From assembly GCA_951406725.2 (NCBI GenBank), contig OX597836.1, positions 22,010,001 through 22,074,000 on the forward strand: a stretch of 64,000 nt of DNA, written 5' to 3'. Position 1 is the stretch's first letter. Each line of letters opens with the position of its first letter. This document shows positions 28,194 to 52,088 of this stretch, piece after piece. This DNA is from Octopus vulgaris (Eukaryota). The position numbers and the translations under genes were made by a program. The notes under the pieces are model-generated. The model was not told where the DNA came from. It did no database searches and saw nothing but the letters and a program-made list of their open reading frames with translations.

Positions 28194-28361
28194 CTATAAC
28201 TTGGAGCTTAAACTGCATGGTCGTCGAAATTCTTGGCCTCGCTCGTGGATCCATTTGTTCATTACCCATTTGTTACCCACCAAGACTGGGCAGGCGGCGT
28301 GTCGCGTATTGAAGATTCCTTCTCCACTCTTGTGCAAGTTGTACCAGAATGCGGCTGTGCC
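28194..28361 (-). CDS. P4HA: P4HA terminal coding exon (GTAAFWYNLHKSGEGIFNTRHAACPVLVGNKWVMNKWIHERGQEFRRPCSLSSKL*)
   Basis: ttcttgatag| acceptor. Distal Fe-binding His in TRHAACPV, 2-oxoglutarate-binding Lys in GNKW, and the QEFRRPC end motif. TAG at 28194-28196. Confidence 0.96.
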   Translation of the reverse strand, partial: GTAAFWYNLHKSGEGIFNTRHAACPVLVGNKWVMNKWIHERGQEFRRPCSLSSKL

Positions 28362-30831: not shown

Positions 30832-30900
30832 TTTTTTGGGAAATAACTTCAGTCCAATATAAGGGAAAACTGTTGCTCCACCGCTTGGAATATCAGACAT
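30832..30900 (-). CDS. P4HA: P4HA exon (MSDIPSGGATVFPYIGLKLFPKK)
   Basis: tttctacag| acceptor and |gtaaga donor, 69 nt, phase 0/0. MSDxxxGGATVFP motif. Confidence 0.95.
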
Positions 30901-32864: not shown

Positions 32865-34329
32865 TACACATATGTATACACATATATATATATATACACT
32901 AATATATATATATACATATACACACATATACATATAGATGTGTGTATATACATACACACATACATATATATATATGGTACATCTATATATATATATTATG
33001 TAAAATACATATATATATTATATAATACATGTATATATATATATATCATATAATACATATATATATATTATATACAATACATAAATATATATATATATGC
33101 ACACACACACACAAGCACATATACATATGAATTGCAGAAATTTAAAAACTTTTTAGGAGACAATTGTAATTAGCCTAGATTATTGTAATTTTAGTATTTC
33201 ATTTCTATACATATAAGTTGACCTGCCTGCTTCTCTTATTCCAGAATGAAGGAGACATCTGCAACAGCACTTTGAACACACCTTACTAAATGCTGCTAAT
33301 TACAGGTGTCTAGTTTGCACAACGCAGGTGTGATGTTTGGAATCTTTGCTATGCGATAAAGTTTTGTGTTAAATTGGGCAAAAACATTACACAAACTTAT
33401 GAACTGCCCCAGGTTGCTTATGAATTAACTTGTATGCTGGCACAAAAGGCTCAAGGATGGTAGAGAGAAGGTGAAAGATAAATGAGGTTGGGGAAGGAGA
33501 GAGCCTTTTGAATAGCAGAGCAGGTTGAGAAAATTTGCAATTTTCTGGATGAAGCTCTTTGTTTGTTTGTAAAGGCAATAAGCATACAATTTGGAGTTGG
33601 TGTAGCAATTTAACACAGAATTATTCATGAAGATATGAACTTGTAGGAGTGGCTGTGTGGTAAGTAGCTTGTTTACCAACCACATGGTTCTGAGTTCAGT
33701 CCCACTGCATGGCACCTTGGGCAAGTGTATTCTACTATAGCCTCAGGTTGACCAAAGCCTTCTGAGTGGATTTGGTAGACGGAAACTGAAAGAAGCCCGT
33801 CGTATATATGTGTGTATCATCATCATCATCATCATCGTTTAACGTCTGCTTTCCATGCTAGCATGTGTTGGACGATTTTGACTGAGGGCTGGCGAACCAG
33901 ATGGCTGCAACAGGCTCCAATCTTGATCTGGCAGAGTTTCTACAGCTGGATGCCTTTCATAACGCCAACTACTCCAAGAATGTTGTGGGTGCTTTTTACG
34001 TACCACCGGCCAAATTACAGCAACATTAGTCCCAAATCCGGACTGTATATATATATATATAAGTTTGTGTGTTTGTTTGTCCCCCCAATATCACTTGACA
34101 ACCGATGCTGGTGTGTTTACATCACCGTAACTTAGCAGTTCAGCAAAAGAGACCGATAGAATAAGTACTAAGCTTACAAAGAATAAGCCCTGGGGTCGAT
34201 TTGCTCGACTAAAGGTGGTGCTCCAGCATGGCCACAGTCAAATGACTGAAACAAGTAAAAGAATAAAAGAGTTGTGTAAAATTTGTGTGAAGTTTGTTCC
34301 AAAGGTGCTAAGAGATTAGCATCCTGAGA

Positions 34330-34632
34330 ACCAACTACTTGACAGAAATGGGGATATAGCCCAGACCTTGCTCCCAGTGACTTTTGGTTACTCTTCAAGC
34401 TGAAGAACTTCTGGGGTAGTTGTTTTGAAGATGAAGGAAGCTGTTCCAAGGGTCATGGACATGTTCACCTTGGAGGACTTCCATGAGGCCTTCACAAAAT
34501 GGCAAGAGAGCTACAACAAGGTTACTGAAGTCAGAGAAAACTACTTTGAGAGAGATTATGGTTTCATACTTGCCTAAAATTAATAAATGTCGCTCCTGAA
34601 AAAGTCTGAAAACTTCTGAAACCACCTTGTAC
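34330..34632 (+). mobile_element. Mariner transposase 3' remnant
   Basis: YSPDLAPSDFWL motif followed by a TIR-like end. Confidence 0.65.
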
Positions 34633-35692
34633 ACACACACACGTTTTCATACATTTTGATATGTATATATACATACTCACATATGTATGTGTGTTTAATC
34701 ATGCATATATCTATATGAGTAGACATTCATTTATATATATATATATGTATGTGTATCAATAGTATACATAAAATAACCAAGTATATAATCACACATACAA
34801 ATACACACATACCTAATACTTACATATATACACACATACTGTATGGTTGGTCGACCTTCAATGCTTGACGGCAAATACCTATTTGTTAGATTAAGTGAAT
34901 TACCTGTTCCTGAATAAATATGTATTCCACTGATACATGTAGTCATTCTCTGGCCAAATCAGCTTGCCACAGTGCATGTGACAAATTTGTACTTCGGATT
35001 ACTGGTGTAATTCATCCAGCAGGCTTCCATACAGTTTTCATTCACATAATGTCACTCACAAGGTATGCATCAACCTGAGTCTATAGAAAATAACATTTGC
35101 CCAATATGCCATGGCATGGGATTGAACCCATGCCCTCATTGTTGAAAAGTAAAACTCTTAACCACTGAGCCACATTGCCTCTATGCACACTGTATGTACC
35201 TCAATAAAATCTACACCAATTTCTTGTTGAACATTGTGAATCACAAGGAAGTCTCTATGAGGTGGTCACTCAATTTACTTGAAATAGCAACCAAGTTTTC
35301 TTTAAATTGCATCATACTGTCTTTAAAAAAGGAAGGAGACATTAAATGATGTTTAATTATATTTCTAGATAAGCACGCAGGTATGTGAGTATTTTTAAAA
35401 TACCTCACAGAATGATGACCATGGACTACTCCTTGGCAAGGCATATCACCCATTCAGCCACCCTGCCAGGGATATGGTGAAGCCATCGAACTGCAGCATG
35501 GCAGATTGTGAAGAGGTATTTAATTATTTTGAGAGCAAAAATATATAAATTCTTATATTAGGGTACATACAGTAGGTGTACACATATACAAACACAAATA
35601 TAAACAAAAACATGTATAGACATGCACATAAACACACACACACACAGCATTTAATTAAAACATTTAATTAGTAAATATTGCTACAAATGAAT

Positions 35693-35707
35693 TCCAACAG
35701 CTGAGAT
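35693..35707 (-). promoter_or_regulatory. Putative splicing docking site (pre-mRNA 5'-AUCUCAGCUGUUGGA-3') between exon C and the next constitutive exon
   Basis: Plus-strand tccaacagctgagat is the exact reverse complement of the element shared after exons A and B. Confidence 0.7.
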
Positions 35708-38102
35708 TTATATTAACAAACAACTCAGGATTATTGTAACTCATAATTAAAATCATAATTTAATTGGATCTTTAACTCACAATCAATTATAACTTATTAA
35801 ATTGTAGAATTTTTAAGGAGTGATTTTCTCTCATTAGGGACAAGAGCAAATACTTTAGTGAGGTTGATAAGACTTTTGCAGGGACTTCAACATTGGTGAG
35901 AGAGGAGGAAAAAGGGACAAAGTACAAGTCAACCAAGAAGGATTTATTTTCTTTTTTAATGACTTAGAAGAGGGAAAGAAGCATCCATGATCCTTTGTCA
36001 GAGTCTTTGAGATTATTGGGAGAAAAGGAGGTATCTGTGACCTCTGAGACTGATTAAAGAAAAACTAGCATTTGTGACCCGTTTGGAGAGAGGTTCTAAG
36101 ACTGCTGGGAAAAAAGGTGTCCAGAATTCTTTTGCAGGGACTGTATGACTGATGGTAAGAAGTGAGTAGGTTATCCATCCTTGGATCTGATACCTTACTG
36201 TGACTGTTCAGACCCCATTAAAGGCACTGAAAAAAGGGAGCTATATAGTGGAAAATAGGGTGTCATATTAAGTCTGTCACTCAAGAATGGGGACAATCCA
36301 GCTAATGGGATTTTACATCTACCAAATTTCACTTACAAGGCTTCAGTTGGCCCAGGACTATGGTAAAAGATTAATGATACTTGTCCAAGGTGCAACACAG
36401 TGGGACTGAACTCAAAACCAAGTAGTTATAAAGGGATTTAACCACAGGACATCATGGGTTTAAAACTATATAAAGTAATGATATTTAGATGTGGTGTTTG
36501 TACCCACCACTACTGACACATTATTAACCGTTGTTGTTTGGACACAGATTTAGCTGAAGGGTCGAGGAATTCGTTTCACAATCATAAGATTCCAGGTTTG
36601 ATCACAAGGAGTAGCAATGAGAATCATTTCACCATAAGTCCATAGACTGATCCAAGCCCTTGTAAGTGAAACTGGAAAGATAGAAATTGAACGGGAGCCC
36701 ATCGGATGGATTACTATACCTGTAATACAATGGGCTGGCCTTGTCACACCATGTGTCATATCTGAGGATTATACTAAGGGTATACAAATGTCTGTGGAAT
36801 ATTCAGCCACTTGCTCTATAATCCACTGAGGAAGCAGTTCCAGTGGAACTGGAAAAACTGAAACACTCATTGTTGAAAACAGAAATACTCGTTGTTGAAA
36901 ACAATTACAAATTTTTATTAATATTATTATTATTATTATTAATGTTAAAAGCTGTTATTATTGTTATTAACGTTCGCATCATGTTTTTTTTTTTGTTCAT
37001 GCTTCTTTTCCAAACTGAGCCCAAAGAGTGACCTCGTTTTTTGTGTACAAATTTGCCCTTGTAATATCCTTTTATCCACCACTCTTGTGGCAAAATAAAA
37101 TCCAAAAAAAAACATGCTGCTTTTGTAGTTTAGTCCTTAGAATTGATCATGCATATACCTTTAATTAAAAGTAGTCCAGCCATGACCATCCCGTCTTTTA
37201 TTTCAGACATTCTTCTATCTGGAACTACCATTATTCAGTGTGTCTTATTTTCTAAGACAGTACAATATGAATTGTAATTTAAAAGGGAAATTTAACTACT
37301 ATATCTAGCAGATTGAATTACAACATAGAGGTTCACTCATTAGCTTGAATACTTATGATTAATCAGAGGGTTTTGTGCTGAGTTAAGAGCCATCATTATT
37401 ATTAGTTTCTCCTTTGATGAGGCACAAAAGTGTAGTGAGTAGGTGGACTGGTTAAGAATATGTAATTCAAAACTACTCTAAAGTGTAGTGAGACGGAGCA
37501 GAACAAAGACAAGTGCACGAAGTTGTGATGTTTGTGTGTATCCTCAAGTGCATGACTAACAGGTAAAAGCTATGCAAAAAAGAATTTTAGCACATTTGGC
37601 TGTGGTCAACTTTACCAGTCGTCCTTTTGGGGGCAATAAAATAAGTACCAGGTAAGTACTGGGGGTGATCTGCAAGAAAATATAGGTCACCCTACCACCC
37701 CTGCCCAAATCTCATTTGAACCACATTGAATTAAAGCAGGACACAGTAAACAAATGTATCTATGATATACCAAAAGACATATTGGTCATGTCTGGAAGGC
37801 CTTTGATCATAATAGGTCTGTTTGATCAGAGCTATCCTGGTTCTGTTGGTGGAGATGGTGTAAAAGATGTGCTAAACAACAACCACCTCAACTATGGTTA
37901 AATAGTGTCAGAGTGAATGAATGGTCATGTAAAAACTGGATAGTTTACAGACCCTGGGTTCAAGCCCAGAGCAGGGTGTCTCCTAGGAAACCAAACTTGC
38001 TATTACAGATCATCCTTGTATTCAGCCAAAGGGTAGATTGAACTCAAAATGTAGAGGGACACAGTCAAATACCAAAAGATATTTTGTTTGCAGCTCTACA
38101 AT

Positions 38103-38800
38103 GGTATGGACGACTGCGCTGGTATGGTCATGTGGTGAGAATGGATGAGGATAGCTATGTGAAAAAGTGCCACACCCGAGCAGTTGAGGGAACCTGTGGA
38201 AGAGGTAGACCCAGGAAGACCTGGGATGAGGTGGTGAAGCACAACCTTTGAACATTAGGACTCACAGAGGCAATGACTAGTGACCGACACCTTTGAAAAT
38301 ATGCTGTGCTTGAGAAGACCCGGCAAGCCAAGTGAGACCATAACCCGTGACCTATGCCAGGGGTGTAACCAGCCCACTTATGTGTACCTTTTCCTTCTTT
38401 GGACACTAAACTCTGCTTGCAAAGACCTGTTGAGGCAAGTGAAATCGAAATTGAATACGATGACAGCACTGCATGACTGGCATCCACGCTAGTGGAGCGC
38501 TAAGAGCACCATCTGAGCATGATCATTGGCAGGGCCGCTGACTGACTTCCGTACCGGTGGCATGTAAAAAACACCATTCGAGCATGGCCGTTGCCAGTAC
38601 CGCTTGACTGGCCCTCGTACCGGTGGCACATAAAAGCACCCACTACACTCTTGGAGTGGTTGGCATTAGGAAGGGCATCCAGCTGTAGAAACTCCACCAG
38701 ATCAGACTGGAGCCTGGTGTAGCCATCTGCCTCGCCAGTCCTCAGTCAAATCGTCCAACCCATGCCAGCATGGAAAGCGGATGTTAAACGATGATGATGA
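38103..38800 (+). mobile_element. RTE-clade LINE 3' fragment ending in (GAT)n
   Basis: RLRWYGHVVRM...RGRPRKTW followed by the same 3' UTR. Related 3'-end copies at about 1445-1830, 10275-10520 (-), 28520-28910, 33817-34010 (-), 58305-58655 and 59190-59630. Confidence 0.82.
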
Positions 38801-39239
38801 TATATATATCTTGTTCATTATCATCATCATTCTTGTTTAACATCCATTTTTTCATGCTTGCATGGATCAGACAGAATTTGGAGAGGCACATTTTCTCTCA
38901 CCAACCCTCACCTGTGTATGTGTGCACATGTGTGTATATAAGTACTAACTAATCACCACCAATATTTTCACCATATTCCTTTATGGCTTCTCTTCTCCAT
39001 CCACAAAGAACCAACATGATGCTTGCTGTTTTCATACTTAAAGAGAAATATCAAGAACAGCACCATCGTCTGCTCTACACAATGTTTATTGACCACACAA
39101 AACTATTTGTCTTGATAAGTTTATTCCCCTGGTACAGACATAAGGGTATGTTTTCTGACTAGGGTGAGTGGACAGTAGTATTCTAATTCATAAAGTGTTA
39201 AACAAGGTTGTGTATCAGCAACTGTGCTATTTAACATGA

Positions 39240-40030
39240 TATTTTCAACCATACTGTTTTATATACTCCAAGACTTTTGCTATCATACTGATGGAACCAA
39301 AGTCAAGGAAGGTACTAAGGACAAGATTCTATTTATGCATGACTGAGCTCTTAATGCAAGTTGAGATGCAGCAAGCTGTGCAGGAGCAAGTTCACCTCTG
39401 CTGCAAAGACCTTTGGCCTTGCCATCAGCACAAAGAAAACTAAATTTATGTGCCAACGAATCCTTTGCAATGAGTAAATGACTGCAATCATGTTGAAGTT
39501 ATCAGATGCTAAAATCTTTATTTTAAATTTTTGGTAGCTAAAATCTTTATTTTAGTTATCAGATGCTATTGTCTAATGACAGGTTTGCATAACTTGGCAG
39601 TATTCTCTTTAAGAATTTTCAAAACCATCATCGCCTTTGGTAAGCTTTGCAAGAACATCAGAATGAAGTGGTATCAGCTTCTGAACCAAAGCGAAGATTT
39701 ACTCAACCATTAATCAATCAACTTAGCCATATCCCACTGAGATGGTGACTGTATATTGCAAACAAATAAAACCTCAACAGGTACTACCTGAACTGCTTGC
39801 ACAAAATGCTGCAGAGTTTTAGGAAGAACAAATCTCAGCCACTAAGATCTTCAACTATCATATGGTGTTACCCAGTCTTCGCACTCTCCCATACAGAGCT
39901 CAGCTGCAATGGTCTGGTCAAACGGTCAGAATGGGTGAGGAACAACTTCTGAAATGCCTTTTAGTTGATCAATTTTCGATGCAAATGGCACAAAGGTATT
40001 CTTAAGGCCTTCTTAAAAGATTTCAACATC
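39240..40030 (+). mobile_element. Highly degenerate RTE/BovB-like LINE reverse-transcriptase remnant
   Basis: FGLAISTKKTK, AFGKL and RAQLQWSGQTVRM-like segments, interrupted by stops. Confidence 0.55.
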
Positions 40031-40405
40031 ATGAGTCTGGGGTCATGGGAGAGAGAGGGAGGGAGTGCATTTCAACTTGGACCTTAGTCACCATTCAAAA
40101 TGGTCAATGACCCACACAAATATATGTGTAGCAAACACTCTCTCAAAAACACACACACATACCCAGTGACATATATAGACACACACACACACACACTCAC
40201 ACATGCCATCAACATACTAATCGCTAGTTATTAATTAATGAATGCAATGAAACAACTCACTAAATAAGGTTTACTCAGGGGCCTTCTTTAGGAATCTTAC
40301 AATCTAGGTTCCAGGGACTGTTTTTCTCCCCAGCCAAATTTGCATGCTCTCTCTCATTCACACTTAAGCAAATCAGCAATAAAATTTATTATTTTTTTTT
40401 GTGTG

Positions 40406-40452
<47 letters not shown>

Positions 40453-40488
40453 CCAAAAACAGTGTTTTAACAAACTTTGTAAACTTAC

Positions 40489-40554
40489 ATATATTAAAAA
40501 TGTTGCTATCCTGTTTCCAGTGCCAAGTCTCTTGAAGGCATTTTTTTCTTCTTT
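40489..40554 (-). CDS. P4HA: P4HA alternative exon C (KEEKNAFKRLGTGNRIATFLIY)
   Basis: ctttcatttataag| acceptor (AAG) and |gtaagt donor, 66 nt, phase 0/0. Closest of the three to the usual P4HA AFKxLGTGNRIAT consensus. Confidence 0.88.
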
Positions 40555-41080
40555 CTTATAAAATGAAAGATATATATCAAAGACAGATGAAAAATGTGGC
40601 ATTTTCTTCTTTTTTTTTTTTTTTTTTAAATATAATTTTTTTTTTATTATTCTGCTTTTTTTCTATTTTGCAATCGTTTTCTTCTATTTTTATGTTGCCA
40701 TTTTTTCTGGGTTTTTTTTTTTTTTTTGAAAGTTAGTGTGAAAAGATGTTACACGTGAAAAAAAAAAAAAATCAGAAATGCAAAAAAAAAAAGAAACACT
40801 TGATAAAAAAAAATTCTTTTTTAATTGCAAAAATTAATAATAATGATAATAATGGTTTCAAATTTTGGAACATGCCAGCAGTTTCCAAGAGAAGGGGATA
40901 GTCGCTAACATCGACTCCAGTATTTGACTGGTACTATATTTTATCAACCCTGAAAGGTTGAAAGGTAAAGTTTACCTCAGTGGAGTTTGAGCTGAGAATA
41001 CAAAAAGCCAGAAGAAATGCTGCTAAGCATTTTCTCCAACATGCTAACAATTCTGCCAGCTCACCATCTTAATCTTAATC

Positions 41081-41112
<32 letters not shown>

Positions 41113-42514
41113 CCTACTAAAGGCACAAGGCCTGAAATCTGGGTGAGTGGGGGTCAATCGATTACATCAACCCAGTATTCAACTGGTACTTATTTTATCG
41201 ATCCTGAAAGTGATGAAAGGCAAAGTTGACCTCAGAGGAATTTGAACTCAGAACATAAAAAAGATAGATGAAATGCCGCCAAGCATTTTACCCAGTATGC
41301 TAACGATTCTGCCAGCTTGCTGCCTTAAATAATAATAATAATAATAATAATGATAATTATTATTATTATTATTATTAAATATCAACCCCTACTCGCTTGC
41401 TCCATTTGTTTTGTTTTTCTTTCTGTGGTTTTTTTTTTTGAAATATTTTTAAAATCACAAAAGCATTGCATTGTAGTATTCCTAGATACACATACACACA
41501 CACACACACACAGCACATGGTAGAAATATTTACTTCCTCAAGTTTATATAAAAGAGGGGGAAAAAATTGATCCAAATGTTAAACCTGCTAGAAATAACAC
41601 CCAAACTTCCCTCAAGTCACATTCTTACTGCCTTTATATAATAGGGAAGGAGATATTTGATAATGCAATCCTAAATATTCTATAGCTGAAAAAAAAAAGA
41701 TAATTGATAGGGATGGTCACAAATGGAATGTCTGTCATCATTGGACTACTTGATTAGGGCTGACTTGGGGCTCTAAAGAATAACAAAGAGGTAAAAAAGT
41801 ATCCAACTAGGTGAAGAGGTAGCTATTCATTCAACTTACTATAGAAATGGTAAGACACATTACATAAAATAGTCTTAGATACATTATGTCTAACAAAAAA
41901 AAATTAAAATTCCACAGAGTAGAATGTCTTTGATCACAAGTCTGCTTGATCTTCATTAGGATGAACCTAGGGTTAAACAGCAACTCAGGAGGCTTTTAAG
42001 GTAACACTGCATTCCCTGATATTTAGATTCCATAATGTTTGTGAGTGTGTGTATGTGCATGTTTTACTATTCCCTTGTCATCAGTCACTGAAGTTGTTTA
42101 ATGTCTTTAGGAAAGGCATGAACACCACAAACTAGCATTTCTTTCATCTTTTAATAATGGTTTCTAATTTAGACACAAGGCCAGAAGTTTCAAGGGGAAG
42201 GGTGTTAGTCAATACCATTGACTCAACTCCCAGTACTTGACTTTATTTTATTGAACCATGAAATATTTGTCACATAATAATCATAATCAAAATTAAAATA
42301 TGCACTAATACAAACACAAACATCCTTGATATATGAGTGAAGTGATGCTCAGGTGAGCAGCAGATATCCTTATTGATCATTAAAGGAGTTGAAACGGGAG
42401 GCAAAGAGAGAAGGATATTTGAAGGGGAAAGAGGCAGAAAGGGTAGAGGGAGATATTCCACAAGAGATCCATTATAATAATATAAAGGTGGAGAGTACAT
42501 TGTAAAAATATCAT

Positions 42515-42529
42515 ATCTCAGCTGTTGGA
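42515..42529 (-). promoter_or_regulatory. Putative splicing selector B (pre-mRNA 5'-UCCAACAGCUGAGAU-3'), about 150 nt downstream of exon B
   Basis: 15/15 complementary to 35693-35707. Confidence 0.72.
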
Positions 42530-42678
42530 TATGTTAATTAGTTGCTACACATTTACATCAGCCAGCTAATTAGGTACGTAATGCAAAACAACAACAAAAA
42601 ATAAAGCTAGATGTTGAACAAGCAACAAGAAAGTGAGCCAATATTTTCATCGGTGGGAGCAGTTACCAAAAAACTTAC

Positions 42679-42741
42679 ATAAAAGAGGAATGTAGCTATT
42701 CTGTTTCCTACCATTTCATCAAAAGCATCTATCTCTCGTTT
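42679..42741 (-). CDS. P4HA: P4HA alternative exon B (KREIDAFDEMVGNRIATFLFY)
   Basis: atcttacag| acceptor and |gtaagt donor, 63 nt, phase 0/0. GNRIATFLFY motif. Confidence 0.88.
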
Positions 42742-44743
42742 CTGTAAGATCAATCATCATAAGGCAAAAGGAGTTGCAAAAAAAAAAAAAAAAAAAAAAA
42801 AAAGGGCTAAAAACTGAAATTCTTGAAAATTTACTGCATAAAAAAAACCACCACTTGAGTTATGTAGGAATTAAAGCATTCAAAAGTAAGAAAACCATCA
42901 TCAACACCATCATAATGGATGGCTTCTCGTCTACATCACCAACGGTACGTCAACGTTTCTCTGACCATCATGTTGGATTTAGGATGGATTAGAGACAAGC
43001 AGATGCAAAATCTTCACATAACTAACAGATAATCCTAATAACATTTTTTCTTTTCAACCTTTCTCTTTGTTTTGTTGTTTTTTTTTTTGCTCTGCACCCA
43101 CCAAAATATTTTCATATACAATTTTGTAGTATAATTAAAATTTAAAACCAAAGATGGAAACGGTACAAACTGCAAAGTAAAAATTTTTTTTTAAATTAAT
43201 TAAATTAATACATGTAAATACATGAAAATGTTCTCTAACACTTCTTTTTTTTATTAACCCTTTTGATACCAACCCACCTAAAACCACCCTTGGTTTTATG
43301 TTAACAATTCTGGTTTAAAGTGATCAAAATTAAAACTTTCCATCAAAATTTTATGTTGATTTGTGATCCAAATACCAGCTTAATAATGACTAAGTTATTT
43401 TACTAGATTCCTTGTTATTTTCTAAACTAATCAAAACAAAGTCAGTGCATTCTGACAGGAATATGGTAACAAAAGGGTTAATCAATTAGATTAACTAAAT
43501 GATTGCTTGATTAATCAATCAGTCATCAGTCTTTATTCAGCTGGTTTGTCAAAGTCCTTTTGTCACCATTCACAACCACATCAAAGTAACAAGGACATAT
43601 GATTGATGGTGTTGCAAATGGCAATGAAAAACACTGACTAACCAGCTAATTGATTGATTGATTGATTGATGAATGATCAATTAAGCTACTGGTTACGTAG
43701 GTATATAAAAACGTAATTAAAAATTTTTTTTTTCTTTTTTTGTCATTTGTATTGGTGAAATGCCCTCTTAATATTTAAGATGAAACTATTTAAGTAAAAG
43801 ACCCTTTTCTTAACCCTTTCATCACCATATTTCCATTGAAATATACAGCCTTTGTTTAAATTAATTTGAAAAATAATGGAGTATTTAGGAGTGGCTGTGT
43901 GGTAAGAAGCTTGTTTCTCGGCCACATGGTTCTAGGTTCACTCTGACTGTGTGGCACCTAGTGCAAGTGTCTTCTACTATAGCCTTGGGCCGACCAAAGC
44001 CTTGCGAATGGATTTGGTAGACAGAAACTGAAAGAAGCCTGTCGTCCCCCCACCCCATCAGTTCACAACCAATGTTAGTGTGTTTATGTCCCCATCACTT
44101 AACAGTTCAGCGAAACAAGACTGATAGAATAAGTACTAGGGCTGCTCACAAAATAAAAGCCCTGGGGTCAATTTGTTCGACTAAAAGCGGTGCTCCAGCA
44201 TGGCCACAGTCAAATGACCGGAACATGTAAATGAATAAAAAGAATTCAGCTGATGTTTGGAACATAAATTAACATGGCATTTTGATGGAAGTGTTTTAAA
44301 TCACTTTAAACCAAGAAGTTCTTTTACATTTTAATACTGGCTTTTCCATGTTTGCACGGAACAGACACACTTTCTTAGTCTCCCATTCAGCATCAAACTA
44401 ACTGTTACATCTCATTAACTCCTTGTCATTGCCTTCCATGTGTAGTTTATTTATTTTTGTAAATAATTTTGAACCTACTTCAGATTGCTATTAAGGTGCC
44501 TTTTGGTTAAAAACTGCAAAAGCAACCACAATATTCCTTTCCTTGTAACACCAAGGAGTTAATTCTATCATGTGCTGTGAAGAAAAAAATTCACAGACCA
44601 TGGAAATAAATTGGTAATTGTTGACATTGTAATGACATAACACAAAATTAGATATTATGGAAGTTGCTGAAACAATTGTAAACTAAGCAATAAACACAAT
44701 ATGCTAACTCCATTCTTTGATATTTCATTTTATATGAATGTGC

Positions 44744-44786
<43 letters not shown>

Positions 44787-44846
44787 ATGATGGTGATGAT
44801 GATATATATATATATGGATACATTCATATCCATATATTTTATGTAT

Positions 44847-44879
<33 letters not shown>

Positions 44880-44953
44880 CATATATATATACACACACAT
44901 ATAAATATATACATATATATATATATTACACACACACACACATATATATATGT

Positions 44954-44996
<43 letters not shown>

Positions 44997-45583
44997 GTAT
45001 ATGTATGTATATATATACATATACACATACAAACATGTATGTGTGTGTGTATATATATATATATATACAAGAGAAGTTGATCATTGGTATTAAAAAGTCA
45101 TTGTTTAATTGTATGCCAGAAGGTTTGCAAATCCAACAGAGGCTTCAAGATATATTTTAAGATCCACAAAGAACAGAACTTAGCCTCAGGACCAAAAAGA
45201 CATGAATATATACATATGTGTATATATGTATATATATATCTATATATATATATAGTTAATCCAAACATGAAAACACACAGAGAAAATACAACAACGCGAG
45301 GACGTGGAACAATTATAGTATTATTGGACACTCATGAAGGAAGGGAAGAAGGAGGGTTTTATGTTTCGAGCGGAGCTCTTCATCAGAAACATAGGAAAAG
45401 GAAAGATCCAAAGAAGGGAATACGGAGGAAAAAAAATCGCCAACGGTACACACGCGGTCACACATACATGTGTATATATGTATATATATATATATACATA
45501 TATATGTTTATATATGTATATATATAGAGAGAGACAGATAGATAGATAGATGATAGATAGATAGATAGATGATAGATAAATAT

Positions 45584-45614
<31 letters not shown>

Positions 45615-45809
45615 AATATATATATACATACATATATATAGATTAAAATCTATTAACCAACATAAGGTGGCAGTCCTGCGTAGGACCAAGTTACTACTTT
45701 TTAACCCTTGGAAAATATCCTTTCCAGCAGGTTATCTATACACAACCTGTGTCTGTCACACACACACATATACCTGTTTTCTGATTATATGATATATATA
45801 TATTATATA

Positions 45810-45860
<51 letters not shown>

Positions 45861-46731
45861 TTAGTGGAAAAAGCACCTCCTTATAGGTGTTATTAACATA
45901 TATATATATAAAGATATATGTGTGTGTATGTATGTATATGAAGGACTGAAATAAATTTGAATATTAGAAAGCTAAGCAGTGAGAGAAATATAATAATTTA
46001 AACACGTTCCTTCTATATTTTTTAATTTTTAAAAAAAGTAGAGGGTGGACTGATGGACCATTTCAAGGTTTGTTGAGCACTCCTCAGAGAAGCTGTACCC
46101 AGTTTCCTTCTGCAATCAACAGCATAGACTATTAGGCTACTATATAAAGCAGTCATAAATTAAGTTATCACCATAGCGGAAATATAGTTTATATAAATAT
46201 ATGAAAATTTTTCTACAACCATGTTAGATATGGTGTGCTAGTATGGACTGAAGGGAACTAAAAGAGGAATTTACAGATGAAGAAGAAAACACAGCAAGAC
46301 TACACATGGCATTTTCTGTGCAAGATAGTACGTGCATGTGTGTGTATCTATGTACTACTTTAGCAATGCCTTCGTTTGACACTAAGATTTCTACTTGTTG
46401 TTAGTGCTTCAGTTAGTAAAACTATCAGAGCTTGCAAAAGAAGCTGTTCTGTGAAAAAATGAAATGATGACATGATGGTTGTGATAGTTATGATAGCAGC
46501 AGTTAAATCTTTAGAGTAGTTTTTAGCAATAGTTAAATAGAAGCAGCACTATTCTACCTGAATTCTGGTAAGGATTAGAATGTAAAAATAAGAAAAAATG
46601 GTAAAATAATTAATAAATACAACTACAAGATAGAATTTGTAATAAAATTTGATTAGGTAACAGATTTTTCACAGACAAAGATGTGACAGTAAAAATTTCC
46701 TGCGATTATCAGAATCTGCTGTTTATTCACT

Positions 46732-47169
46732 GGATGGAAATGGAAGCACTCCGTCAGTTATGACGACGAGGGTTCCTGTTGATCCGATCAACGGAACAGC
46801 CTGCTCGTGAAATTTATGTATATATATAAATATATATATAAAAATATCCTTTTCTACTTAACGTGTAAGGGGCTGAGCACTCCACAGACACGTGCACCCT
46901 TAACGTAGTTCTCGGGGATATTCAGCGTGACACAGAGAGTGACAAGGCCAGCCCTTTGAAATACAGGTACAACAGAAACAGGAAGTGAGTGTGAGAGAAA
47001 GTTGTGGTGAAAGAGTACAGCAGGGATCACCACCATCCCCTGCCGGAGCCTCGTGGAGCTTTAGGTGTTTTCGCTCAATAAACACTCACAACGCCCGGTC
47101 TGGGAATCGAAACCGCGATCCTACGACCGCAAGTCCGCTGCCCTAACCACTGGGCCATTGCGCCTCCAC
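46732..47169 (-). mobile_element. Same tRNA-SINE family, full length, 13-bp TSD (ctgtttattcact), with an internal AT-rich insertion
   Basis: High identity to 24235-24618. TSD at 46719-46731 and 47170-47182. Confidence 0.88.
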
Positions 47170-49018
47170 CTGTTTATTCACTATTGGAATAATGAATCTC
47201 AAGGCACATCACATAAAGCTATGAATAACACTGTGTAACAAAATTTTTCTTTTAGCTTGCTAACCAACCACATGGTTCCAGGTTCAGTCCCACTGCGTGG
47301 CATCTTGGGCAAGTGTCTTCTGCTATAGCCCCGGGCCGACCAATGCCTTGTGAGTGGATTTGGTAGACGGAAACTGAAAGAAGCCTGTCGTATATATGTA
47401 TATATATATATAAGTGTGTGTGAATATGTTTGTGTGTCTGTGTTTGCTTGACAACCGATGCTGGTGTGTTTACGTCCCCGTCACTTAGCGGTTCGGCAAA
47501 AGAGACCGATAGAATAAGTACTGGGCTTACAAAGAATAAGTCCCGGGGTCGATTTGCTCGACTAAAGGTGGTGCTCCAGCATGGACGCAGTCAAATGACT
47601 GAAACAAGTAAAAAGAGTAAAAAGAGTATTGGTCAGTAAATATTATTTCCTCCTTGCTTCTATCTAGAAATCAAAGGAAATTACTTTTATTCCCTTCAGA
47701 CTTTGCTTTTGTGACCTGGACATCGATATTTTAGAACTGACCTATTTCCCATAACATTTCAGACATATTCAGCATTAAGTTGCTGAAGCAGAAATATCCT
47801 TTTCTACTCCAGGCACAAGGCTCGAAATTTTTGGGAAAGGGCCCAGTCAATTAGATTGACCCCAGTACGCAACTGGTACTTAATTTATCAACCCTGAAAG
47901 GATGAAAGATAAAGTCGACCGTGGCAGAATTTGAACTCAGAACATAAAGACAGACGAAATACTGCTAAGCATTTTGCCCAATGTGCTAACATTTCTGCCA
48001 GATCACCCCTTGCTCAAGCAGAAATATTGTTATAGCAAACATTCTGCTTAATATCACAGATTTGCTTGTCAGGTGCTTGACCATAACCACTTGAGCATGG
48101 CATATCCCTTAGTGGCCTACAATATGTATATCTCTGATCATGAGTAGGAATAGTGGGGGAGCATCATAACCATGTGTTGAGGGGGATTCCTTGGAGTTTG
48201 GATAAATGTAGCAAAAGCAAAGTCTGAAGGAAATATTGGATTGTCCGGAAAGTTTGTGCCTATTTTTAAAGGAAAGAAAAAGGTCAATAAATACTTGCCA
48301 TTACATTTTTAATCAACCAAATATGAACCATTTTGTTGCACAATGTGTCTCCATCTTTCCTTTAACTTGAAAATACCCTCTTCCCAGAATTGAGATGCCT
48401 GGGAGGGTAAGTCGAAAGATAAGCTGCTATAAATCGGCACAAATTTTCCAGACAACCCAATATTAGCCATTTTTCATACATTCTAGTGATAAGCAAATAG
48501 GGAATAAGAGTTGCCACCGAAGGACAAAATCGTGTTACACAGTGTAATAGCATGTAAATATTTTCAACTCAATATTTACATACTATTCTTTATATTTATA
48601 GCTGTTTATGTGACGTGCTGCATGAGCCAGTGTTCCAGAAATTAATTACTTCATGATGTCAACATGTTATATATAGAGGATGGAAGAAGCTCCATTTTGA
48701 AGCATTTATGTAATTTCCCTAAAGACACCAAGTGAATTGCTATGGCTGGATGCAAAAAAAGAAAAAAGAAAGAACCTTCTCAAAAAACTCTTACACAAAC
48801 CCATGAAATTCTTTGAAAACTATTGAAGATATTACATGGAGACTATCAGTAGATATCAACTAATCTTTAGTGGAGTCAAAACAGTGGAAAGAAACAAAGA
48901 AAGAAAGGTTCAAAGACAGGGCAAGAGGAGGAGTGGGAGCATATGTAGGGCTGAATGACATAGTCCCTTTGCAATGTATCCTCACATGAGGAAGGGGTGG
49001 AAAATAAAAAAAAAGTAC

Positions 49019-49032
49019 ATCTCAGCTGTTGG
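49019..49032 (-). promoter_or_regulatory. Putative splicing selector A (pre-mRNA 5'-CCAACAGCUGAGAU-3'), about 210 nt downstream of exon A
   Basis: Identical 14-mer also follows exon B. Perfectly complementary to 35694-35707. Confidence 0.7.
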
Positions 49033-49243
49033 GCCTGTTAATTATTTGGTGTTGAAATAAATAAATCCAACACCAACTACATAGCTAACGAAGCGACTAA
49101 TGAGATGGTGAACAAACAATACATCTCAGTATCTTATATATATATATATATATGTGTATATATAATATAAACATATTTTATATATTTATATATATATATA
49201 TATATATATATGGTGTGGTGGGGAGGGTTACGAAAAGACTTAC

Positions 49244-49306
49244 ATAGAAAAGAAACGTAGCTATTCTGTTTCCTACCATCTGCTCTAAGACGGTACTTTT
49301 CCTTTT
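49244..49306 (-). CDS. P4HA: P4HA alternative exon A (KRKSTVLEQMVGNRIATFLFY)
   Basis: attccag| acceptor and |gtaagt donor, 63 nt, phase 0/0. GNRIATxLxY motif, no stop codons. Confidence 0.85.
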
Positions 49307-50269
49307 CTGGAATAGCAATCACAGCAAAAAGAATAACTAAAAACTGAATATGACAAAAATTTACTTCATAAAATAAATGTAGCAAATATAGAGGAATTAC
49401 ACATGGCTCCAGATCCATTTTCTTTTTCCTTCCTTGACCATCCTGTCAGAATAGGTTGGTTTGGTTTCAGTTAAGGTAAATATATGCATCTTTATTTCAA
49501 CTAAGAAATAATTTGTTTGTTTTTTTTGTGCATGATTATTGCCCCGCAAAAAAAAAACAACAAAAAAACATGGCACCTTGTTTCATACAAAAAAATTTGA
49601 TATTAGTGAAATTTAAATTAAAAGATAATTAAAACAAAACAAAAACATATGAACTTTGAGATATAAAAAGAAATTAGATTAGAAAAGGATTTTTTATTTT
49701 TGTTATAGTTGAAATGTTATTTTAATTTTCACTGTAAAATGTTATGGAAAAAGAAAACATAACTGACAGCAAAAAATAAATAAATAAAATAAAATAAAAT
49801 AAAAAATATTAAAAAATTATAATAAAGAAAAACAGTGTTGATTATACATTGGCATTTATAATGAAACTAAACATACATATATATTTATCTATATATATAT
49901 ATATGATAGAAGTGAACTGTGAAAATGAGTACTCAACACTGCATTTTGGGATTTTCCCACACAACCATAGGTTTCATGCTCTGGAATTCACAATTTTCAA
50001 GTGCTCTACATATAAAATAGTGGTAAAAGTGTTTCCATTTTATATGTCAAACATTTGAAAATTGTGAATTCTAAAGCATAGAACCAAAGGTTGTGAAGGA
50101 AAATCATAAATAAAAAATATATATAACCTACCGTTGATAAGGCCAAAAGAGTTTGAAATCGTGCTGGTGATAACACACAGGAAAACAAAATGAGATATTT
50201 TCTCTTGGTAAAACCGCTGTATCATGTGTTCTAACACATCGACTTTTAAATGGTGAATACTTTACTATA

Positions 50270-50491
50270 TATGAAAGGGTGCTGAAAAGTTCCTGGTTTT
50301 AAGGGTTATTATGAAAGGCCTGGTTGGAGGTCCAACTTTCTGAGTTCTTTTACAGGGCTTAGAAAAACTGAAGGACCACTGCTATAAGTGTATGAATCTG
50401 AGAGAGGAATATATTGGATAAAATCATAATCAACTGATCCTCCTGTGTTTTCTTTAACCCAAAGCCAGGAATTTTTCAGCATCTCCTCATA
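50270..50491. mobile_element. Mariner-derived MITE
   Basis: Imperfect TIRs tgaaagggtgctgaaaagttcctgg and ccaggaatttttcagcatctcctca, flanked by TA. A smaller Tc1/mariner-type element lies at about 55736-55814. Confidence 0.65.
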
Positions 50492-51149
50492 TATACATGT
50501 GTGTATGTGTGTGTGTGTGTATGAATCTCATACATATTTTCCTGTATATTTGTTGCAACAGATATACAGAATGTGTGTATTTTGTGTGTGTCTGTTGTAC
50601 ACATGTATATGTATTGAATATTGTATGTGTATGTACATGTGTTGTATGTGTGTATCTGTGTGTGCTGGGAGGAGCCTTGATTGCAAAAATTGTGAAAAAA
50701 ACAGAATAATATTTTAAATGATATATTTTTTTTAAAATTACATAATTAAAATGACATATAAACATAATTATATATAGAAAACATCAGCAGTAAGATTATC
50801 AATGGAAAATTTGGGGTTATTTTTAAAAAAGCATTAAAAAGTCAATTGTCCAGCAATGGGTCCTGAGAAAGGATTAATTTGGGAAGGAAAAGAAATGGGA
50901 AGGTGTCTGTTATTCTTTCTACCCCATCCAACCAGTTTTAAACTTGAGCTGAATAAGTCAGAATATTATATATGTATATACAAACACATGAAGGTGCATG
51001 GCAACTGCTAAATCATGGGTTCGATTCCCTGACTGAGCAGCACATTGTGTACTTGAGCAAAACACTTCATTTCACGCTACTCCAGTCGTCCTTTGATCAG
51101 TGGGGAATGTTGGCCTACTTAACATAAACTCAGAACTCAGTTATTTTCA

Positions 51150-51480
51150 AGAGATGAAAAATGCGCAGACATAGAGACTGACACATGCAAAAACACAACA
51201 CCAACCGCATTATTGCCAACTATGAGAGAATGTCTTCCAGATATTATCTTCCCATGAGGCATAATACAGAATGGTATGGAGTAAGATAACAAAAAAGAAA
51301 ATACCTACAAATGAAGTTGACCATATTGAAGTCAATGGGTCAAAAAAATATTGGTGGAACTTACAAATTAAAACAGCCACCAAGTTAAAACTCAGCTGGC
51401 CAGATATCATTGTGTGGGACCACAAAGAAAAAATATGTTCTGTTGTGGAAATCAGCTGCCCTTCGGACACAGAAACCCTT
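51150..51480 (+). mobile_element. Remnant of a restriction-like-endonuclease non-LTR retrotransposon (R4/Dong/NeSL-like)
   Basis: YWWNLQIKT...PDIIVWDHKEKICSVVEISCPSD matches the PD..D...(D/E)xxxP restriction-like endonuclease signature. Confidence 0.65.
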
Positions 51481-51813
51481 GCAGAATATAGAACAGATGT
51501 CACATTATTTGTCTGTCTTTCAGTCTTATTTTTGTCTATTTTTCTTTCCCCATATGTTCTCTATCTCATCTATTTATCTTTATCTATCTTTGCTTCTGTT
51601 GTCTATCTTCATATTTGTCTGTTTTTGAATGTATCAGTGTTTCAGTCTGTCAGTCTGCCTATGTTCTCTGTTTTTGTGAGTATCACAGTGTTTATCTGTT
51701 AGTTTGCCTATACTTATGTGTCTGTCTGTTAGTCTGTCTTTGCATGTATTATCATTACGTATATCTGATTGTCAATAAAATGAAGTTCAAGTTAGTGAAA
51801 AAGATTTACTCAC

Positions 51814-51867
51814 CCTTGCATAGTCAAAATGAGGTTCATAATGGCCACCAATTCCATAGTTAGCAAC
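51814..51867 (-). CDS. P4HA: P4HA exon with the Fe(II)-binding HxD motif (VANYGIGGHYEPHFDYAR)
   Basis: ttaccacag| acceptor and |gtgagt donor, 54 nt, phase 0/0. Canonical VANYGxGGxYEPHFD. Confidence 0.96.
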
Positions 51868-52088
51868 CTGTGGTAAAGAAATAAAATTGATTAAGAAGTG
51901 GTAGCAGAGGGCAAACAAGCAACTAGAATATCAAAGAGAACGGGTTAGTCTTACAGTGGTTCTTAAAAATTTAATATTTGTGGATTCCTTTGATTGCTAT
52001 TTTATTCTGGTGGACTCCCAGAACCAGGTTACATTGTTTTCCCATTATTAATCAATTGTATAATAATATTTAATTATAACACTATATA

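What the first reader, a model, noticed from the sequence alone, without database searches (positions are those of the whole stretch)
35693..49306. Docking-site/selector RNA pairing system controlling mutually exclusive P4HA exons
Seen: the introns after exons A and B are diverged but share the 14-mer (plus strand) atctcagctgttgg, about 210 and 150 nt after the donors. I saw no such element directly after exon C. Its exact reverse complement (14/14 to A, 15/15 to B) sits at 35693-35707, downstream of the whole cluster in the pre-mRNA. The chance of a pre-specified 14-mer occurring in about 20 kb is roughly 1e-4 under uniform base composition. Established: competing pairing between selectors and one downstream docking site enforces mutually exclusive splicing in the insect 14-3-3zeta exon 5 cluster, and related docking/selector schemes act in Dscam1. 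Inference: A-dock pairing loops out B and C, B-dock pairing loops out C, and no pairing leaves C available. All three exons are multiples of 3 and lie kilobases apart, so neither frameshift-NMD nor steric hindrance can explain exclusivity. I am not aware of this mechanism being described for a P4HA gene or in a cephalopod. The pairing spans are long (about 13 kb and 7 kb).
Basis: partly seen in the sequence, partly recalled or inferred. Interest (0 to 1): 0.92.

Follow-up and report, generated by a model that had tools for sequence, protein, structure and literature searches.

The report
Octopus exon-choice RNA pairing switch
In an octopus collagen-modifying enzyme gene, two short intron sequences can each pair with the same distant partner, which probably lets the cell pick one of three alternative exons, a mechanism known from insects but here spanning many thousands of bases in a mollusc.

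Summary
The minus-strand gene is an Octopus collagen prolyl 4-hydroxylase alpha subunit with three tandem homologous exons (A 63, B 63, C 66 nt) encoding a substrate-binding loop. The same 14-mer lies 211 and 150 nt after the donors of A and B. Its one reverse complement lies in the intron after C, 13.3 and 6.8 kb away. All three sites are in single-copy DNA; the word occurs 17 times in 2.8 Gb, about chance. A and B share the word by descent, since their introns still align. The evidence for selection is that the longest block kept intact is exactly the block that pairs: about 5e-6 to 2e-4 per cluster by chance. Annotated isoforms carry A, B, C or none, never two (5 of 5). The layout matches the insect 14-3-3zeta downstream-dock system. 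Cross-species conservation and RNA reads could not be tested (one search listed no runs). The dock is predicted partly closed, and repeat-derived pairings also cross these introns. Verdict: probably a real new member of a known mechanism, unproven.

The parts
51814..51867 (-). Constitutive exon upstream of the cluster (VANYGIGGHYEPHFDYAR, holds the first iron-binding His-x-Asp)
   Evidence: matches P0013 residues 413-434 region; His-x-Asp role from established knowledge
49244..49306 (-). Alternative exon A, 63 nt, KRKSTVLEQMVGNRIATFLFY
   Evidence: present in O. sinensis isoform X4, P0124
49033..49094 (-). Local hairpin that ends directly at selector A
   Evidence: -19 kcal/mol, z -4.33, 1 of 200 shuffles as stable; not significant at the matching place after B (z -0.42)
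49019..49032 (-). Selector A (14 nt), 211 nt after the donor of A
   Evidence: single-copy surroundings
42679..42741 (-). Alternative exon B, 63 nt, KREIDAFDEMVGNRIATFLFY
   Evidence: present in O. sinensis isoform X3, P0122
42515..42529 (-). Selector B (15 nt), about 150 nt after the donor of B
   Evidence: single-copy surroundings
40489..40554 (-). Alternative exon C, 66 nt, KEEKNAFKRLGTGNRIATFLIY (the widespread long type; no selector after it)
   Evidence: present in P0013 and P0121
35693..35707 (-). Docking site, reverse complement of both selectors; 4,781 nt after the donor of C and 4,807 nt before the next acceptor
   Evidence: single-copy surroundings; best or tied-best partner of each selector in the 38 kb scanned
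30832..30900 (-). Constitutive exon downstream of the cluster (MSDIPSGGATVFPYIGLKLFPKK)
28194..28361 (-). Last coding exon to the stop codon (GTAAFWY...SKL)
   Evidence: 100% identical to P0013

Best explanation
A downstream-docking-site system of competing pre-mRNA helices that guides choice among three homologous exons. SHOWN: the two selectors are complementary to the same nucleotides of one dock, so only one can pair at a time; A-dock pairing encloses B and C, B-dock pairing encloses C. SHOWN from annotation only: mRNA models carry one exon or none. INFERRED mechanism: pairing loops out the enclosed exons and brings the chosen donor to about 5.0 kb from the next acceptor, instead of 18.3 kb (A) or 11.8 kb (B). 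With the dock unpaired (it has its own predicted local hairpin), C is used by default. INFERRED origin: an older two-exon cluster (short type upstream, long type downstream) had one selector-dock stem. A tandem duplication of the short exon with at least 400 nt of its downstream intron copied the selector and made A and B compete, as in the Ivanov-Pervouchine model. Purifying selection has since kept the 14 pairing bases intact while the flanks drifted. NOT EXPLAINED by the pairing: why A stays out when B or C is chosen. As in the insect cases this needs weak default recognition of unpaired exons; the annotated isoform that skips all three fits that.
For: Exact geometry. 17 copies of the word in 2.8 Gb, 3 of them within 13.3 kb in this gene; about 21 expected by an order-3 Markov model. 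Each of the three surroundings hits only itself in the genome (1 of 1 candidate each), whereas a control intronic repeat from the same gene gave 5,224 candidates. The 14-mer is the longest perfect run in the A/B intron alignment (runs 14, 9, 7, 7...). With simple repeats masked, it is also the longest perfect complement to intron C in the first 420 nt after both A and B; the same statistic is 10 after C and 12 in 3 of 3 control stretches. Chance: 7 of 400 simulated introns match any of 217 candidate words, times 2.9e-4 to 1.1e-2 for keeping those 14 bases, gives about 5e-6 to 2e-4 per cluster. Dock flanks show no homology to selector flanks (12 of 12 tests p >= 0.26). Duplex energy -26.3 and -27.4 kcal/mol; selectors cost only 3-5 kcal/mol to open. 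Octopus isoform cluster: 2 C, 1 B, 1 A, 1 none, 0 double of 5. Same layout as IE1/IE2/IEa of 14-3-3zeta (PMC4174434 passages; PMC6071210 Discussion). A 30 kb functional pairing exists in ATE1 (PMC11802352 passage).
Against: No second species and no RNA reads were seen (one search listed no runs), so conservation, covariation and true exclusivity are untested; isoforms are database gene models. The dock is predicted to be partly sequestered (opening cost about 12 kcal/mol at 37 C), leaving roughly -10 kcal/mol before the entropy cost of a 7-13 kb loop. The dock is 4.8 kb from the next acceptor, so approximation is partial. Repeat-derived inverted pairs of 60-116 nt at 71-78% identity also bridge these introns: 4 enclose B+C and 2 enclose C, so long-range pairing here is not unique to this element. 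No convincing upstream (bidirectional) dock was found; the best donor-proximal candidate is a 13-bp, -14.5 kcal/mol helix within background. There is no A-versus-B base change inside the helix, so there is no covariation within the genome. 15 of 293 homologous proteins from other animals are modelled with two such exons in a row, one a RefSeq isoform of Lineus; none is a cephalopod.
Confidence: 0.7

Rival explanations
1. The pairing is real and selected, but it only biases isoform ratios (helps the distal exons A and B compete with C, or times their splicing). Exclusivity itself comes from splice-site strength and splicing proteins.
For: A downstream dock cannot by itself exclude upstream exons (PMC6071210 Discussion). 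The dock is far from the acceptor and partly closed. An isoform skipping all three exons is annotated (P0123). The exon pair exists in many molluscs, so exclusivity may predate this element.
Against: A-dock pairing physically encloses B and C, and the two selectors compete for the same bases, which is the pattern tied to exclusivity in insects.
Confidence: 0.12
2. Coincidence plus descent. A and B share the word because the duplication copied the intron, and the downstream complement is a chance match with no function.
For: The A and B introns are homologous, and a 14-run in such an alignment is not rare (0.04-0.64). Some word after A finds a complement in a simulated intron C in 7 of 400 trials. 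The finding was picked from a very large scan.
Against: It needs the one best-kept block to be the one block with a perfect downstream complement, in the right orientation and intron: 5e-6 to 2e-4 per cluster.
Confidence: 0.1
3. The three sites are copies of an orientation-independent DNA-binding site (the word has a CAGCTG E-box core; label from established knowledge) acting as intronic enhancer elements, not RNA pairing.
For: The palindromic CAGCTG core is visible in the sequence; two forward copies and one reverse copy fit a DNA motif.
Against: The word is not enriched genome-wide (14 other copies against about 21 expected). Exact identity over 14 bases is more than an E-box needs. The positions track exon donors.
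Confidence: 0.05
4. The dock is a relic of an old inverted insertion or decayed mobile element that shares ancestry with the selectors.
For: Inverted repeat pairs are common in these introns.
Against: No similarity beyond the core between dock and selector flanks (12 of 12 tests non-significant). All three regions are single-copy.
Confidence: 0.03

Closest known systems
Insect 14-3-3zeta exon 5 cluster (IE1, IE2, IEa; Yang et al. 2011, not seen; described in PMC4174434 and PMC6071210 passages)
   Same: Tandem homologous exons, duplicated intronic selectors competing for one docking site downstream of the cluster, origin by duplication of exon plus intron.
   Different: Different gene and phylum. 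Spans here are 6.8 and 13.3 kb in repeat-rich introns, with the dock 4.8 kb from the acceptor. The insect case has cross-species conservation and (recalled) mutational proof; this one has neither yet.
Ivanov and Pervouchine 2018 duplication model (PMC6071210)
   Same: Duplication of an exon with one arm of an intronic stem gives two selectors for one dock. The A and B introns here still show that shared ancestry.
   Different: Their data are Drosophila and human. Text search found no P4HA, PH4 or mollusc mention. Supplements not read.
Dscam1 docking/selector clusters, Mhc, MRP1, srp
   Same: Competing intronic helices select one exon of a tandem array.
   Different: Dscam exon 6 uses an upstream dock and srp uses bidirectional pairing. 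No convincing upstream dock was found here. Recalled, not seen (searches failed): Yue et al. 2017 reported similar MRP1 pairings in an annelid and amphioxus, so non-arthropod cases exist.
Human ATE1 exons 7a/7b
   Same: Competing intronic helices, including an ultra-long-range (30 kb) pairing, control a duplicated exon pair.
   Different: Two exons, five elements, and a different geometry.
Vertebrate P4HA2 exons 12a/12b
   Same: Same exon position and protein region. Exon B aligns to NDERDTFKHLGTGNRVATFLNY of 7ZSC. The splice variants change the betaII-betaIII substrate-binding loop (PMC9676403 passage). Order short type then long type is the same in L015.
   Different: Two exons, not three. 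In the P4HA2-like locus L015 they are only 68 nt apart with no downstream complement above background. No RNA-pairing mechanism for P4HA genes was found.

Membership tests
Downstream-dock competing-pairing MXE system (14-3-3zeta exon 5 type) | Tandem homologous exons coding the same protein segment | tested here: met
   (exactly 3 genomic matches to the shared exon core, all in this cluster)
Downstream-dock competing-pairing MXE system (14-3-3zeta exon 5 type) | Exons used one at a time in mRNA | tested here: inconclusive
   5 of 5 annotated Octopus isoforms have one exon or none; these are gene models and no reads were obtained
Downstream-dock competing-pairing MXE system (14-3-3zeta exon 5 type) | Intronic selector after each exon except the last | tested here: met
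   211 nt after A, 150 nt after B, none after C
Downstream-dock competing-pairing MXE system (14-3-3zeta exon 5 type) | One dock downstream of the cluster, complementary to all selectors on the same bases | tested here: met
   35693-35707; 14/14 and 15/15 Watson-Crick
Downstream-dock competing-pairing MXE system (14-3-3zeta exon 5 type) | Selector and dock conserved across species, with compensatory changes | not testable with these tools
   No relative genomes are held. The run search listed none. 0 of 61 metagenome loci matched the Octopus or Sepia exon peptides. Indirect: retention between the paralogous A and B introns
Downstream-dock competing-pairing MXE system (14-3-3zeta exon 5 type) | Disruptive mutations change exon choice and compensatory mutations rescue | not testable with these tools
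   needs a minigene
Bidirectional pairing MXE system (srp type) | A second, upstream dock pairing with selectors before the exons | tested here: inconclusive
   Only weak helices (best relevant 13 bp, -14.5 kcal/mol, 51704 with 43032), none shared by B and C
Steric-hindrance MXE | Very short donor-to-branch-point distance between the exons | tested here: not met
   Introns of 6,502 and 2,124 nt; branch points not mapped
NMD-enforced MXE | Double inclusion shifts the frame | tested here: not met
   63, 63, 66 nt, no stops
U2/U12 incompatibility MXE | Mixed major and minor spliceosome sites | tested here: not met
   All three donors are GTAAGT, all acceptors AG
Collagen prolyl 4-hydroxylase alpha subunit | N-terminal, peptide-binding and catalytic domains | tested here: met
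   PF08336, PF23558, PF13640 on P0013; E 1e-89 to 7ZSC and 6e-64 to 4BTA

The most novel reading that the evidence does not exclude
An ancient bilaterian exon duplication in the P4H substrate-binding loop is kept exclusive by a very short intron in compact genomes. In cephalopods it came under a 7-13 kb RNA switch as the introns grew, and duplicating one arm of that switch added a third, fast-diverging exon for free. The dock's own hairpin would be the default 'C' state, opened by either selector. Exon choice, and so the enzyme's collagen preference, could then respond to transcription speed or temperature in a cold-blooded animal. It would be the first such system in a mollusc found in my searches.
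Probability: 0.15. Interest if true: 0.75.

Novelty: new member of a known kind. Interest (0 to 1): 0.52.

Why it matters
If true, it extends competing-pairing control of mutually exclusive exons to a mollusc and to a collagen prolyl hydroxylase. It shows that a 14-bp helix can act across 13 kb of repeat-rich intron. It is also a clean natural example of the duplication model for how selectors arise, because the copied intron is still visible around the selector. The exons alter the loop that grips the collagen substrate, so the switch would set enzyme isoform. The element is small and single-copy, which makes it directly testable by orthologue alignment, minigene or antisense oligonucleotide. 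The mechanism itself is not new.

Tried and rejected
Cross-species DNA: the look-up of sequencing runs on 35450-43000 (DNA, library word Hi-C) listed none. That is no evidence either way; no reads or contigs were laid. Metagenome scan for the exon end: 61 loci, none matching the Octopus or Sepia exon peptides. 25 of them carry a short-type exon with no second copy detected, so they could not test pairing. 5 carry two copies 55-90 nt apart and show no complement above shuffles. Repeat origin of the three sites rejected. Inverted-relic origin of the dock not supported. Extension of the helix beyond 14-15 bp: cofolding suggests a loose extension for B only, but flank tests are not significant. 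A conserved hairpin beside both selectors: significant for A only. Upstream dock: nothing convincing. Exon C pairing with 36200-36250 (-24.4 kcal/mol) is close to the best background hit for exon A (-23.7), no null computed. Second exon pair upstream in the gene: inverted matches look repeat-derived; the one tested is a high-copy repeat. Rfam: 44 matches at E <= 1 in 34000-52000, none overlapping selectors or dock; only a tRNA-like match at 35112-35179 passes its gathering score. Earlier findings of the scan: nothing in 3 look-ups. Literature: no paper linking P4HA or cephalopod exons to dock/selector pairing. The library lacks most subscription papers, Yue et al. 2017 was not held, and no supplements were read; catalogues of predicted pairings there could list a P4HA case.
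Full report
THE OBSERVATION. The 14-mer is at 49019-49032 and 42515-42528 on the plus strand and its reverse complement at 35694-35707; no further site with up to 2 mismatches lies in the window. The gene runs on the minus strand. Three homologous phase-0 exons, A (49306-49244), B (42741-42679) and C (40554-40489), lie between constitutive exons at 51867-51814 and 30900-30832. In the pre-mRNA the word stands 211 nt after the donor of A and 150 nt after the donor of B. Its complement stands 4,781 nt after the donor of C and 4,807 nt before the next acceptor. Pairing is 14/14 and 15/15. The spans are 13.3 and 6.8 kb.

THE GENE. The last coding exon is 100% identical to a collagen prolyl 4-hydroxylase alpha subunit annotated in Octopus vulgaris and O. 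sinensis (P0013), so the window is from Octopus. The cluster of that protein has 5 members: 2 with exon C, 1 with B, 1 with A, 1 with none, 0 with two. These are database gene models, not reads. The exon aligns to the human alpha(II) segment in 7ZSC. [quoted passage not shown] A pattern for the shared exon core has exactly 3 matches in the genome, all here.

IS IT MORE THAN CHANCE? The word occurs 17 times in 2.8 Gb, 3 of them in this cluster; the reversed control occurs 4 times and an order-3 Markov model expects about 21. The 160-280 nt around dock, selector B and selector A each match only themselves, while a repeat from another intron of the gene gave 5,224 candidates. So it is not a repeat. 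First, inverted matches are common here: 917 of 28,843 complex 14-mers have one within 20 kb, mostly from mobile elements. Second, the introns after A and B are homologous over about 300 nt even with the word masked (0 of 500 shuffles reach the score), with 56-72% identity depending on how gaps count. Sharing a 14-run is therefore not remarkable alone (0.04-0.64). What is remarkable is the coincidence. The 14-mer is the longest perfectly kept block between the two introns (next 9). With simple repeats masked it is also the longest perfect complement to intron C in the first 420 nt after both A and B, against 10 after C and 12 in 3 of 3 control stretches. Any of 217 candidate words after A finds a complement in 7 of 400 simulated introns, and a given 14 bases survive between A and B with probability 2.9e-4 to 1.1e-2; the product is about 5e-6 to 2e-4 per cluster. 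The dock's flanks are unrelated to the selectors' flanks (12 of 12 tests p >= 0.26), while the A and B 5' flanks are related (p 0.001-0.005; 3' flanks p 0.09-0.30), so the dock is not an inverted copy of that intron.

EVOLUTIONARY SETTING. A short-type (20-21 aa) and a long-type (21-22 aa) version of this exon alternate in annotated isoforms of Sepia, Babylonia, Physella, Biomphalaria, Pomacea, Crassostrea, Ruditapes, Mya, Mercenaria and Mytilus, and in fish P4HA2; only the long type was seen in Haliotis, Patella, Lottia and Argonauta. In 15 of 293 proteins two such exons are modelled in a row (10 Trichinella, plus Mytilus, Ascaris, Lineus, Strongyloides, Haemonchus), the long GTGNR/NTGNR type mostly second. 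Most look like gene-prediction merges (inference), but the Lineus one is a RefSeq isoform. In 5 of 61 metagenome loci the two copies are only 55, 68, 85, 88 and 90 nt apart and show no downstream complement above shuffles, which fits steric exclusion (inference; branch points not mapped). The one short exon seen in Sepia is B-like. With the alignable introns and 4 synonymous differences in the last 12 codons of A and B, this suggests A arose from a B-type exon in the octopus lineage (inference; an unannotated third exon in Sepia is not excluded).

HOW IT MOST LIKELY WORKS. The selectors compete for the same dock bases (shown). A-dock pairing encloses B and C; B-dock pairing encloses C (shown by position). 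Duplex energies are -26.3 and -27.4 kcal/mol, and the selectors are cheap to open (3-5 kcal/mol). Pairing would bring the chosen donor to about 5.0 kb from the next acceptor instead of 18.3 or 11.8 kb (inferred effect). With no pairing, C is left as default; the dock has a local hairpin of its own and costs about 12 kcal/mol to open. That weakens the net pairing to about -10 kcal/mol before loop entropy, and could also be the default state. A strong hairpin ends directly at selector A (z -4.33) but not at B (z -0.42). Inverted mobile-element pairs nest inside both loops; they may shorten the loops or compete, and they show that long-range pairing here is not unique. The model does not say what keeps A out when B or C is used. 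PMC6071210 (Discussion read) makes the same point for known systems and invokes weak default recognition; the skip-all isoform fits. I found no convincing upstream dock. Frameshift/NMD, steric and U12 mechanisms fail on the sequence.

WHAT I COULD NOT TEST. No relative genome is held, and the one sequencing-run search listed none. Conservation, compensatory change and direct exclusivity remain open. Selector A and B are identical over the 14 bases, so there is no covariation inside the genome either. This is why confidence stays at 0.7, with 0.12 more on a real pairing that only biases ratios.

COMPARISON WITH WHAT IS KNOWN. It works like the 14-3-3zeta exon 5 system, where duplicated IE1-type selectors compete for one downstream IEa (PMC4174434 passages; PMC6071210 introduction, methods start, passages and Discussion). 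It matches the duplication model in those papers. All architectural membership features are met; the conservation and mutation features are untested. Long spans have precedent in ATE1 (30 kb; PMC11802352 passage). PMC5740500 (passages) notes that such structures are usually not conserved over long distances and has no P4HA mention in its main text. PMC8373072 (passages) traces a P4HA1 exon duplication to Bilateria without mechanism. PMC4691838, PMC12772994, PMC9741552, PMC7434440 and PMC7404189 were seen as passages only. Yang 2011 and Yue 2017 were not seen; the annelid and amphioxus MRP1 cases are recalled. Searches found no report of such pairing in a P4HA gene or a cephalopod, within a library that lacks most subscription papers; no supplements were read.

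VERDICT. Observation confirmed; interpretation supported but unproven. New member of a known kind, apparently the first in a mollusc in the literature I could search. Interest 0.52.

Noticed in passing
G000:C23:22093392-22093547 and 22088486-22088656 (upstream of the window; L062): A second pair of homologous alternative exons in the same gene, in the peptide-substrate-binding domain (isoforms P0013 vs P0121). Two variants at this position are also seen in cephalopod-like Logan proteins and in gastropods and bivalves. Inverted matches around them look repeat-derived; the one tested is high-copy.
   Followed up: partly
window 49033-49094 (-): Strong 62-nt hairpin ending directly at selector A (z -4.33). 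It could stack on the selector-dock helix or be a separate element; no Rfam match.
   Followed up: partly
window 47373-47266 with 36427-36312; 46969-46867 with 36812-36717; 41235-41171 with 37663-37600: Inverted mobile-element pairs (71-78% identity) nested in compatible order inside the A-dock and B-dock loops; they could shorten the effective loops to about 2-3 kb. May be chance given repeat density.
   Followed up: partly
window 40524-40503 with about 36250-36200 (-): Exon C can pair with a stretch about 500 nt upstream of the dock (-24.4 kcal/mol), reminiscent of the extra exon 5c pairing noted for 14-3-3zeta; not above the background seen for exon A.
   Followed up: partly
window 49266-49230 and 42701-42665 (-): Weak hairpins cover the donors of A (-4.3) and B (-3.5) but not C (-0.8); the constitutive upstream exon has one too (-5.7), so this may be incidental.
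   Followed up: partly
window 40555-40557 (-): Exon C, the presumed default exon, has an AAG acceptor end while A and B have CAG; AAG is usually the weaker form.
   Followed up: no
L009, L015, L017, L041, L059: Tandem copies of the same P4HA exon in other animals, only 55-90 nt apart. L015 is P4HA2-like by peptide similarity; in the other four the upstream copy is the GTGNR type, suggesting an independent duplication.
   Followed up: partly
window 49306-49280 (-): The first nine codons of exon A differ strongly from B (KRKSTVLEQ vs KREIDAFDE) while the rest is identical in protein; gastropod short exons show similar basic/Ser-Thr starts. Possible adaptive change or convergence in the substrate loop.
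   Followed up: no
window 49984-50071: Local inverted repeat (17-bp perfect arms) in the intron before exon A, probably a small mobile element.
   Followed up: no
window 35112-35179 (-): tRNA-like match just above the Rfam gathering score, inside a repeat copy; probably a tRNA-derived SINE head.
   Followed up: no
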